NCBI RefSeq assembly: GCF_009914755.1
Contig: NC_060927.1
Length of the DNA stretch: 64,000 bases
Reading direction: 5' to 3' (one strand)
Source of the DNA: the human T2T-CHM13v2.0 reference genome, Homo sapiens
Shown here: positions 38,421-41,844 of the stretch, piece after piece
How positions within the stretch are numbered: the first letter of the stretch is position 1
How the letters are laid out: each line of letters begins with the position of its first letter
Notes under the pieces: generated by a model
What the model was told of the DNA's origin: nothing
The model's input: only the letters and a program-made list of their open reading frames with translations
The model's database searches: none
Translations under genes and position numbers: made by a program

Positions 38421-40063
38421 GGGGCATCCAAATCAGTAAAGAGGAAGTCGAACTGTCACTATTTGCTGATGACATGATTGTATACCTAGAAAACTCTAAA
38501 GACTACTCTAAAAAGCTCCTAGAACTGGCAAATAAATTCAGCAAATTTTCAGAATACAAAATTAATGTATGCAAATCAGTAGCCCTGCTGTATACCAACA
38601 GCAACCAAACTGAGAATCAAATCAAGAAGTCAGCCCCTTTTACAATAGCTGCAAAAGAAAAATAAAACATTTAGGAATAAACTTCATCAAGGAGGTGAAA
38701 GATCTCTACAAGGAAAATTACAAAACACTGCTGAAAGAAATCATAGATGACCCAAACAAGTGGAAACATATCCCACGCTCATGGATGGGTAGAATCAATA
38801 TTGTGAAAATGGCCATATTGCCAAAAGCAGTCTTCGAGTTCAATGCAATTCCCATCAAATTCCACCATCAATCTTCAAAGAACTAGAAAAAAAATCCTAA
38901 AATTCCTATGAAACTAAAAAAGAGCCCACATAACCAAAGCAAGACTAAGCAAAAAGAACAAACCTAGAGGCATTGCATTACCTGACTTCAAACTATGCTA
39001 TAAGGCCATAGTCACCAAAACAGCATGGTATTGGTGTAAGAACAGGCACATAGACCAATGGATCAGAACAGAGAACCCAAAAATAAACCCAAATGCTTGC
39101 AGTCAACTGATCTTCAACAATAAAAACAAAAACATAAAGTGGAGAAAAGACACCCTATTCAACAAACAGTGCTAGGATAATTGGCAAGCCACGTGCAGAA
39201 GAATGAAACTGGATCCTCATCTCTCACCTTATACAAAAATCAACTCAAGATGAATCAAAGACTTAAATCTAAGACCTGAAGCCATAAAAATTCTAGAAGA
39301 TAACATTAGAAAAACCCTTCTAGACACTGGCTTAAGGAAAGACATCATGACCAAGAACGCAAAAGCAAACACAACAAAAACAAAGATAAATAGATGGGAC
39401 TTAATTAAACTAAAAGGCTTCTGCACAGCAACAGAAATAATCAGCAGAGTAAACAGACAACCCACAGAGTGGGAGAAAATCTTCACAATCTTTACATTTG
39501 ACAAAAGACTAATATCCAGAATCTACAAGGAATTCAAACAAATTAGCAAGAATAAAACAAACAATCCCATCAAAAACTAGGCTAAGTACATGAACAGACA
39601 ATTCTCAAAAGAAGATATACAAATGCCCAGCAAACATATGAGAAAATGCTCAAAATCACTAATGATCAGAGAAATGCAAATCAAAACCCCAATGTGATAC
39701 CACCTTACTCCTGCAAGAACCGCCATAATCCAAAAATCAGAAAATTACAGATGTTGTTGGAGATGTGATGAAAACGAAACACTTTTACACTGTTGGTGGG
39801 AATGTAAACTAGTGCAACCACTATGGAAAACAGTATGGAGATTCCTTAAAAGAACTAAAAGTAAATCTACCATTTGATCCAGCAATCCCACTCCTGGGTA
39901 TCTACTCAGAGGAAAAGAAGTCGTTATACAAAAAAGATACTTGCACACATATGTTTATAGCACCACAATTCGCAATTACGAACATATGGAACCAGCCCAA
40001 ATGCCCATCAATCAACAAGTGGATAAAGAAAATTTTATATATACCATATATACTACTCAACCA
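38421..40063 (+). mobile_element. L1PB-type ORF2 fragment (from RT FADD), lacking its own 3'UTR
   Basis: [24 protein letters not shown] at about 38423; L1PB-type agaggaaaagaagtcgttatacaaaaaagatacttgcacac; stops at tactactcaacca. Confidence 0.88.
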
Positions 40064-40314
40064 TACACAGTGGTGGCAAGGCTTATCTGCTACAAAGAAG
40101 ACATGTTTTAGACAAATACTCATGTGTATAGGCACAACACTCAAGGACTGTATTTGTGACTAATCTTATAACAGGTTATTTTAGTTTCTTTTCTGTGGAA
40201 AGTATAAAGCATTCCAATAAAGAGTTTAATACAGATTTTTTTTTGCACCTATGCTGTTGACTGCTAAATGTAATAGTCTGATCAAGATGCTGAATAAATG
40301 TGTATTTTTAAAAA
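40055..40314 (+). pseudogene. HNRNPA1: HNRNPA1 3'UTR retrocopy fragment
   Basis: cacagtggtggcaaggcttatctgctacaaagaagacatgttttagacaaatactcatgtgtat...ggactgtatttgtgactaat...ataacaggttattttagtttc...gctaaatgtaatagtctgatc...gctgaataaatgt matches the recalled HNRNPA1 mRNA 3' end; AATAAA at 40293-40298. Confidence 0.88.
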
Positions 40315-41844
40315 TATATATTATTTTAAAACTTAAAACATCAGTAGATGAGCTGAAACTGAAGGTGGTCACCACTGATGAGACTCGAATTAGTGACTGA
40401 AGATCAAGTGAAAGAAATCTCTGAAATAGCAGAGCACAAATTTGATGGATTAGAAACTATGAGAGAAGAGAGAAGAGATCCAGTTACTAAATCCAGGAGA
40501 CCCAAGAATCAGTTTCACAAGGAGAAAGAGACAGATGGAAGAGTCACACTAATTATACAAATTGGGGGATTAAAATACCCCAAGCAGTAGAGAGACCTGA
40601 ACCTAGGTTCAATCTGATTTAAAAGAAGAGTCTCAGATCTGTATTAAAATTCCAGAACTCCAGGAATAAAGTATTTAAAAAGAAAACCACGCCCTAAATT
40701 ATCACCACCAAAAAAATCCCTACTTATTTTATTAAGTATAGAAATAATATTTATACAAGGTTAGAAAATTCAATGATACGTAAAACTATGAAAGGGAAAG
40801 TAAAAATCTTACTTTATCCTCTGCATTTTCCTCCCCGAGACTTTTCTAGGAAAATGGAATCATTTAATAATGATTAATATAGTTTCCTGAATTTCTCACA
40901 GCCCTCTAAAGTTTATGCATGTAACATACATATACCTGGTGGGAGGAGCCAAGATGGCCGAATAGGAACAGCTCCGGTCTACAGCTCCCAGCCTGAGTGA
41001 CGCAGAAGACGGGTGATTTCTGCATTTCCATCTGAGGTACCGGGTTCATATCACTAGGGATTGCCAGACAGTGGGCACAGGTCAGTGGGTGCGCGCAACG
41101 TGCGCGAGCCGAAGCAGGGAGAGGCATTGCCTCACTCGGGAAGCGCAAGGGGTCAGGGAGTTCCCTTTCCTAATCAAAGAAAGGGGTGACAGAAGGCACC
41201 TGGAGAATCGGCTCACTCCCACCCGAACACTGCGCTTTTCCGATGGGCTTAAAAAACAGTGCACCACGAGATTATATCCCGCACCTGGCTTGGAGGGTCC
41301 TACCCCACGGAGTCTCGCTGATTGCTGGCACAGCAGTCTGAGATCAAACTGCAAGGCGGCAGCGAGGCTGGGGGAGGGGCGCCCACCATTGCCCAGGCTT
41401 GCTAAGGTAAACAAAGCAGCCGGGAAGCTCGAACTGGGTGGAGCCCACCACAGCTCAAGGAAGCCTGCCTGCCTCTGTAGGCTCCATCTCTGGGGGCAGG
41501 GCACAGACAAACAAAAAGACAGGAGTAACCTCTGCAGACTTAAATGTCCCTGTCTGACAGCTTTGAAGAGAGCAGTGGTTCTCCCAGTATGCAGCTGGAG
41601 ATCTGAGAATGGGCAGACTGCCTCCTCAAGTGGGTCCCTGACCCCTGACCCCCGAGCAGCCTAACTGGGAGGCACCCACCAGCAGGGGCACACTGACACC
41701 TCACACTGCAGGGTATTCCAACAGACCTGCAGCTGAGGGTCCTGTCTGTTAGAAGGAAAACTAACAAACAGAAAGGACATCCACACCAAAAACCCATCTG
41801 TACATCACCATCATCGAAGACCAAAAGTAGATAAAACCACAAAG

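What the first reader, a model, noticed from the sequence alone, without database searches (positions are those of the whole stretch)
38421..40327. Chimeric L1PB-HNRNPA1 retrocopy joined at a microhomology
Seen: an L1PB ORF2 fragment stops at tactactcaacca (40051-40063) and runs directly into the HNRNPA1 mRNA 3' end, which supplies AATAAA and the A-run. Both flanks look like one interrupted old L1M ORF1-like sequence (tggaactaaaaacatgattt | taaaacttaaaacatcagtagatgagctg), with a degenerate TSD aaaaacatgattt / aaaaatatatattattt. Recalled: L1PB has TACTACTCAGCCATA and HNRNPA1 has AACTCAGCCAAGCACAG at this point, giving about 9 nt of shared ACTCAGCCA. Inference: one TPRT event primed on HNRNPA1 mRNA that template-switched to L1 RNA, which is the reverse order of the usual U6-L1 chimeras.
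Basis: partly seen in the sequence, partly recalled or inferred. Interest (0 to 1): 0.7.

Follow-up and report, generated by a model that had tools for sequence, protein, structure and literature searches.

The report
L1 fragment wearing an HNRNPA1 tail
This is a single, dead, old insertion in human DNA in which part of a LINE-1 jumping gene is fused to the tail of the HNRNPA1 gene's message; the seam suggests the message was likely copied into an existing LINE-1 and the hybrid then likely jumped here, a curiosity of mechanism with no sign of function.

Summary
The structure is real. 38422-40065 is a broken, 5'-truncated L1 ORF2 piece lacking its last ~330 nt. It runs into 244 nt of the HNRNPA1 last exon (40066-40309), ending at the proximal poly(A) site. 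The junction lies in register on a 9-mer shared by both parents (chance 2e-5 to 7e-5). Both halves are about 8% diverged. The flanks rejoin as one old L1 ORF1 within 1 nt. No second copy was found. The two bases right of the shared block are L1-type (21 of 27 L1 relatives; 0 of 71 other HNRNPA1 copies), whereas a first-strand switch predicts HNRNPA1-type. The break also sits on an L1 T|AAAAA endonuclease site that three Alus used in other L1 copies. Best reading (0.40): HNRNPA1 cDNA landed in L1 DNA at that site, and the hybrid was re-copied here from a source not found. Rivals: RNA template switch 0.33; formation in place with loss of the L1 end 0.17. Primate orthologs were not available. New variant of a known kind; low to moderate interest.

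The parts
38170..38420 (+). Left flank, decayed old L1 ORF1-like host sequence
   Evidence: Joined flanks align across the site to L079, score 156.5 vs best of 200 shuffles 138; not above shuffles for the other 3 of 4 loci
38408..38420 (+). Likely 5' copy of a 13-nt target site duplication, starting at a CT|AAAAA endonuclease-like site
   Evidence: Sequence; register against old ORF1 copies 27 vs 28 nt; weak alone
38421..38421 (+). One extra G at the 5' junction (most relatives have A here)
38422..40065 (+). 5'-truncated, frameshifted L1 ORF2 fragment from the RT domain to about 40 codons before the stop; L1PB-like (name recalled); last ~330 nt absent
40055..40063 (+). 9-nt block shared by L1 and HNRNPA1 (one change in the window)
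   Evidence: Only match of 9 nt or more between 2.1 kb of an L1 relative and the HNRNPA1 last exon
40064..40065 (+). L1-type TA; in L1 relatives the start of a T|AAAAA endonuclease site
40066..40309 (+). HNRNPA1 last-exon 3' UTR up to the proximal poly(A) site; AATAAA at 40293-40298
40310..40326 (+). 5-nt A-run and degenerate 3' copy of the likely target site duplication
40327..40717 (+). Right flank, continuation of the old L1 ORF1-like host
   Evidence: Two-part motif found at 4 other genomic places, 0 in the reversed control; alignment

Best explanation
This is a dead composite retrocopy that likely formed in two steps: HNRNPA1 mRNA was likely reverse transcribed into an L1 DNA copy at that copy's own endonuclease site, and the hybrid was then likely transcribed and re-inserted here as one unit. 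Step 1 (inferred): ORF2p nicked a source L1 at T|AAAAA near the end of ORF2 and primed on the HNRNPA1 poly(A) tail. After ~250 nt the cDNA reached a 9-nt match to the DNA just upstream of the nick, paired there and was joined at the nick, which keeps the L1-type TA. Step 2 (inferred): transcripts of that L1 now ended at the HNRNPA1 poly(A) signal, which drops the last ~330 nt of L1; one was retrotransposed with 5' truncation into an old L1 ORF1 on chr3. The source has since been lost or was never fixed (inferred). Shown: the parts, the seam, equal divergence within error, rejoining flanks, single copy.
For: TA follows the block in 21 of 27 scored L1 relatives and in 0 of 71 other HNRNPA1 copies (63 AG, 4 AA, 2 GG, 1 CG, 1 TG); two independent changes to TA would have a chance near 0.001, perhaps 0.005 allowing for age (my estimate). 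T|AAAAA is intact in 18 of 27 relatives, and such sites cover 0.5-2.6% of possible break positions, by motif strictness. Three Alus start 15, 15 and 16 nt after this nick in other L1 copies, in a range that allowed 5-27 nt, the usual TSD length (PMC2912911); a control motif gave 0. L003 shows an HNRNPA1 retrocopy nested in sense in an L1 ORF2. Non-CpG divergence: L1 121/1518 = 8.0%, HNRNPA1 17-18/229 = 7.4-7.9%, Fisher p about 0.9-1. The flanks rejoin within 1 nt. cDNA annealing to the target's 5' end is a published model of 5' truncation.
Against: No source or sibling: 1 match (self) for the junction at up to 3 mismatches, no junction-spanning hit among 40 scored of 4472 candidates, 0 for an HNRNPA1 end followed by the L1 remainder (exact pattern only). 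Step 1 needs almost no duplication at the source (break 0-1 nt from the nick), where about 15 nt is usual, and a chance 9-nt match (about 0.7% within the last exon). The source's ORF2 would lack about 40 C-terminal residues, so it probably needed help in trans. The endonuclease-site argument was noticed after the fact. The Alu test rests on 3 vs 0, and the TSDs of those Alus were not checked. The second base of TA mutates G to A in 4 of 71 copies, so only the T is strongly L1-type.
Confidence: 0.4

Rival explanations
1. One TPRT event primed on HNRNPA1 mRNA; the cDNA switched to an L1 RNA at the 9-nt match and copied 1.64 kb more.
For: Needs no lost source; single copy. The seam uses the only 9-nt match available. 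Equal age of both halves. ORF2p jumps templates in vitro (PMC10830420), and nine de novo insertions from two RNAs were seen in cells (PMC11702581).
Against: The cDNA must copy HNRNPA1 AG before it reaches the block, so AG is predicted and TA is seen (0 of 71). The endonuclease site at the break is then a 0.5-2.6% coincidence.
Confidence: 0.33
2. HNRNPA1 cDNA joined an L1 already sitting at this site, at the same endonuclease site, and the last ~330 nt of L1 were lost at insertion (target-site deletion) or later between the two A-tails.
For: Explains TA and the endonuclease site without a lost source. Target-site deletions are known (PMC10760644). TTTTAAA occurs in the tails of 7 of 28 relatives.
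Against: Needs the two insertions close in time (equal divergence, though the HNRNPA1 interval is wide, 4.4-12.1%) plus a precise loss. Two fused tails would be expected, yet at most 5 A remain. No trace of the L1 3' end at the site.
Confidence: 0.17
3. A complete L1 and a longer HNRNPA1 retrocopy in its tail were fused later by a microhomology-mediated deletion.
For: A 9-nt in-register match suits end joining; a retained mismatch is possible in a DNA heteroduplex (inference).
Against: Needs nesting in the tail, matching ages and a deletion; the endonuclease site stays unexplained; the flanks show no loss.
Confidence: 0.06
4. Homology-free joining: RNA ligation, end-to-end template jump or trans-splicing.
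For: HNRNPA1 sequence starts right after an AG; ligation is proposed for U6/L1 chimeras.
Against: The in-register 9-mer would be chance, 2e-5 to 7e-5; no GT follows the L1 break.
Confidence: 0.04

Closest known systems
U6/L1 and other chimeric retrogenes (described in PMC2104539, PMC4476161, PMC13174262)
   Same: Two transcript copies in the same orientation, directly joined, inside one likely TSD, with a 5'-truncated 3' part.
   Different: Order reversed: L1 is 5' and the cellular RNA 3'. The 5' part is truncated at both ends instead of full length. The seam has a 9-nt match.
L1 3' transduction (PMC10760644)
   Same: In the best reading a source L1 transcript ends at a downstream non-L1 poly(A) signal and carries unique sequence to a new site.
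   Different: The carried sequence replaces the L1 3' UTR and tail instead of following them; no source found.
5'-truncated processed pseudogene nested in an L1 (e.g. L003 here)
   Same: HNRNPA1 3' end with poly(A)-site terminus, in sense, in L1 ORF2 at an endonuclease site.
   Different: L003 keeps L1 sequence downstream and has its own short duplication; here the downstream L1 is absent.
De novo two-RNA insertions after L1 induction (PMC11702581)
   Same: One insertion from two transcripts with TSD and poly(A) features.
   Different: Those are somatic cell-culture events; whether any has L1 5' and mRNA 3' could not be read (figure and Fig. S7 not held).

Membership tests
Chimeric retrogene (Buzdin type) | 5' part is a full-length cellular RNA | tested here: not met
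   5' part is an L1 ORF2 piece cut at both ends; feature list
Chimeric retrogene (Buzdin type) | 3' part is a 5'-truncated copy of an RNA | tested here: met
   Last-exon 3' UTR only
Chimeric retrogene (Buzdin type) | Directly joined, same orientation | tested here: met
Chimeric retrogene (Buzdin type) | Flanked by one pair of direct repeats | tested here: inconclusive
   Degenerate, about 3% by chance alone; flank register supports it
Chimeric retrogene (Buzdin type) | Both parts arrive together in orthologs | not testable with these tools
   No other primate genome is held
HNRNPA1 processed pseudogene | Derives from the mRNA and ends at a poly(A) site | tested here: met
   Ends where 12 of 28 other fetched copies switch to an A-tail
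HNRNPA1 processed pseudogene | Intron loss | tested here: inconclusive
   The piece lies within one exon
L1 3' transduction | L1 3' UTR and tail precede the carried sequence | tested here: not met
   Last ~330 nt of L1 absent
L1 3' transduction | A source element with the same junction exists | tested here: not met
   human assembly only, limited sensitivity
L1PB subfamily | Best match to an L1PB consensus | not testable with these tools
   No repeat library; name recalled. 86% to best hits vs 75% to the neighbouring full-length L1

The most novel reading that the evidence does not exclude
An L1 swapped its own 3' end for a host mRNA's 3' UTR and poly(A) signal after that mRNA was copied into it, and the hybrid still moved: a route to L1-5'/mRNA-3' composites that 5'-only catalogues would miss and that would be misread as template switches.
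Probability: 0.4. Interest if true: 0.5.

Novelty: new variant of a known kind. Interest (0 to 1): 0.33.

Why it matters
The element itself is inert: no open L1 frame, no HNRNPA1 coding sequence, no annotated gene over it. Its value is as a mechanistic fossil. The recent genome-wide catalogue of L1 chimeras defined candidates only 5' of L1 (PMC13174262, methods section), so the reverse order was not surveyed there. The seam gives a simple rule to sort such cases: which parent owns the bases just 3' of the microhomology, and whether the break sits on an endonuclease site.

Tried and rejected
A family of copies from a surviving source: rejected. An ancestral HNRNPA1 allele with TA: 0 of 71. Trans-splicing: no donor GT after the L1 break. 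Naming the flanks by Pfam: no hit at E up to 1 for 3 flank frames. DNA search with the right flank: self only. Protein search: 4 weak hits, E 0.3-10, not useful. Aligning the joined flanks to ORF1 of L1 relatives and window L1s: 0 of 8 above shuffles. The left-end 36 nt alone matched upstream of the motif in 1 of 4 old copies (p 0.007; others 0.11, 0.59, 0.83). The repeat finder gave only a 71% pair near the TSD. Dating cannot split the models because the HNRNPA1 interval is wide. Literature: 9 searches listed no paper on this locus or on L1-5'/mRNA-3' germline chimeras; HNRNPA1 has 0 occurrences in the main text of PMC13174262. The original chimeric-retrogene survey, the cultured-cell L1 intermediates paper and the large de novo target-site study were not held, and no supplements were read, so absence from print is not shown.

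Full report
What is there. The insert spans 38421-40326. 38422-40065 is L1 ORF2 from just before the RT FADD motif to about 40 codons short of the stop, broken over several frames. Its best genomic relatives are 82-86% identical (40 scored of 24623 candidates); the neighbouring full-length L1 is 75%. Relatives continue about 330 nt beyond the break to their tails; that piece is absent at this site. 40055-40309 matches 39 other places at 85-90% (40 scored of 96). One, L011 on chr12, has introns and encodes a peptide matching solved hnRNP A1. The window holds only last-exon 3' UTR, ending where 12 of 28 other fetched copies switch to an A-tail.

One site. A two-part motif from the right flank found 4 other copies, 0 in the reversed control; they read as decayed L1 ORF1 coiled coil (the L1M label is recalled). 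With a 13-nt duplication counted once, the spacing across the site is 27 nt against 28 in L076 and L079, so the flanks rejoin with no real loss. The joined flanks beat 200 shuffles for 1 of 4 copies, and the search motif inflates that score. The duplication alone is weak (about 3% by chance). It starts at CT|AAAAA, close to the TT|AAAA endonuclease consensus.

Age and copy number. Without CpG-prone columns the L1 part differs from the majority of its 6 closest relatives at 121 of 1518 sites (8.0%, 6.7-9.4), and the HNRNPA1 part from the parent at 18 of 229 and from the majority of 29 copies at 17 of 229 (7.4-7.9%, 4.4-12.1); there is no difference. The junction is unique at up to 3 mismatches, among 72 HNRNPA1-type matches and among 40 scored junction-spanning candidates. 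An exact pattern for a source layout found 0.

The seam. ACTCAGCCA is the only match of 9 nt or more between 2.1 kb of one L1 relative (L035) and the HNRNPA1 last exon. A random join falls in register within 2 nt of such a run in 14 of 593,280 pairings, or 70 of 1,038,240 with three exons. So homology guided the join. But the two bases to the right of the block are TA. That is the L1 state (21 of 27 scored relatives; 2 of 29 dropped for lacking the motif), never the HNRNPA1 state (0 of 71). Reverse transcription runs from the 3' end, so a first-strand switch must copy HNRNPA1's AG before reaching the block; TA then needs two mutations (1 of 71 and 4 of 71 singly). Further, in L1 this T begins T|AAAAA (18 of 27), a motif class covering 0.5-2.6% of break positions. 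In three other L1 copies an Alu starts 15-16 nt after that nick (control 0), which is what target-primed insertion with a ~15-nt duplication gives (PMC2912911, background section). The site is therefore likely a real endonuclease target in L1 DNA; the numbers are small and those duplications were not checked.

Mechanism. These two facts fit an L1 DNA partner. I infer that HNRNPA1 cDNA was primed at this nick in a source L1, was captured by the 9-nt match just upstream and was joined at the nick. L003 shows the ordinary version of this step, an HNRNPA1 retrocopy nested in sense in L1 ORF2. A transcript of such a source would end at the HNRNPA1 signal, and its 5'-truncated retrocopy would have exactly this layout: one site, equal ages, no L1 3' end. 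The costs are a missing source, a near-blunt first insertion and a source ORF2 lacking its tail. These weights are judgement; the top two are close.

Known kinds. Chimeric retrogenes have a full-length cellular RNA 5' and mostly L1 3' (PMC2104539, background section and passages; PMC4476161, passages); this one fails the first feature. PMC13174262 (abstract, sections 6, 10, 23, 39 and passages) catalogues partners 5' of L1 only. PMC11702581 (section 7 and passages; later version passages) reports nine two-RNA insertions in cells; its supplement was not available and may hold this order. PMC10830420 (passages) shows ORF2p template jumping and tolerance of terminal mismatches. PMC10760644 (passages) covers transductions and target-site deletions. 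PMC5470649 and PMC9252281 (passages) added nothing specific.

Verdict. A real, dead, single-copy composite in an unusual order. New variant of a known kind, interest 0.33. Orthologs would settle most of what is open.

Noticed in passing
window 40941-about 47050: Full-length younger L1 with an open 328-aa ORF1 (41845-42831) and ORF2 broken over several frames; the annotated enhancer 40601-41236 overlaps the start of its 5' UTR.
   Followed up: partly
window 2591-3892: Older broken L1 ORF1, 55-58% amino-acid identity to the ORF1 above.
   Followed up: no
L007 (G000:C8:115153105-115156362) and L068: A young L1 with a sense-inverted-sense layout and intact 3' end is followed directly by an HNRNPA1 last-exon-only piece that runs to the distal poly(A) site. 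No 5' half of the retrocopy within 7 kb upstream and no clear duplication around either part. A second L1-then-HNRNPA1 join of unexplained origin.
   Followed up: partly
L003 (G000:C8:82721487-82724742): 5'-truncated spliced HNRNPA1 retrocopy nested in sense in an L1 ORF2, with a short duplication and L1 continuing downstream.
   Followed up: partly
L002 (G000:C16:61516890-61520147): HNRNPA1 copy that begins exactly at the last exon's splice acceptor AG and holds no other exon.
   Followed up: no
L023 (G000:C10:48815299-48818556): HNRNPA1 retrocopy in which the far 3' UTR is inverted and placed before the coding part.
   Followed up: no
window 38360-38388: CA-rich microsatellite inside the left flank, just upstream of the insertion site.
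   Followed up: no
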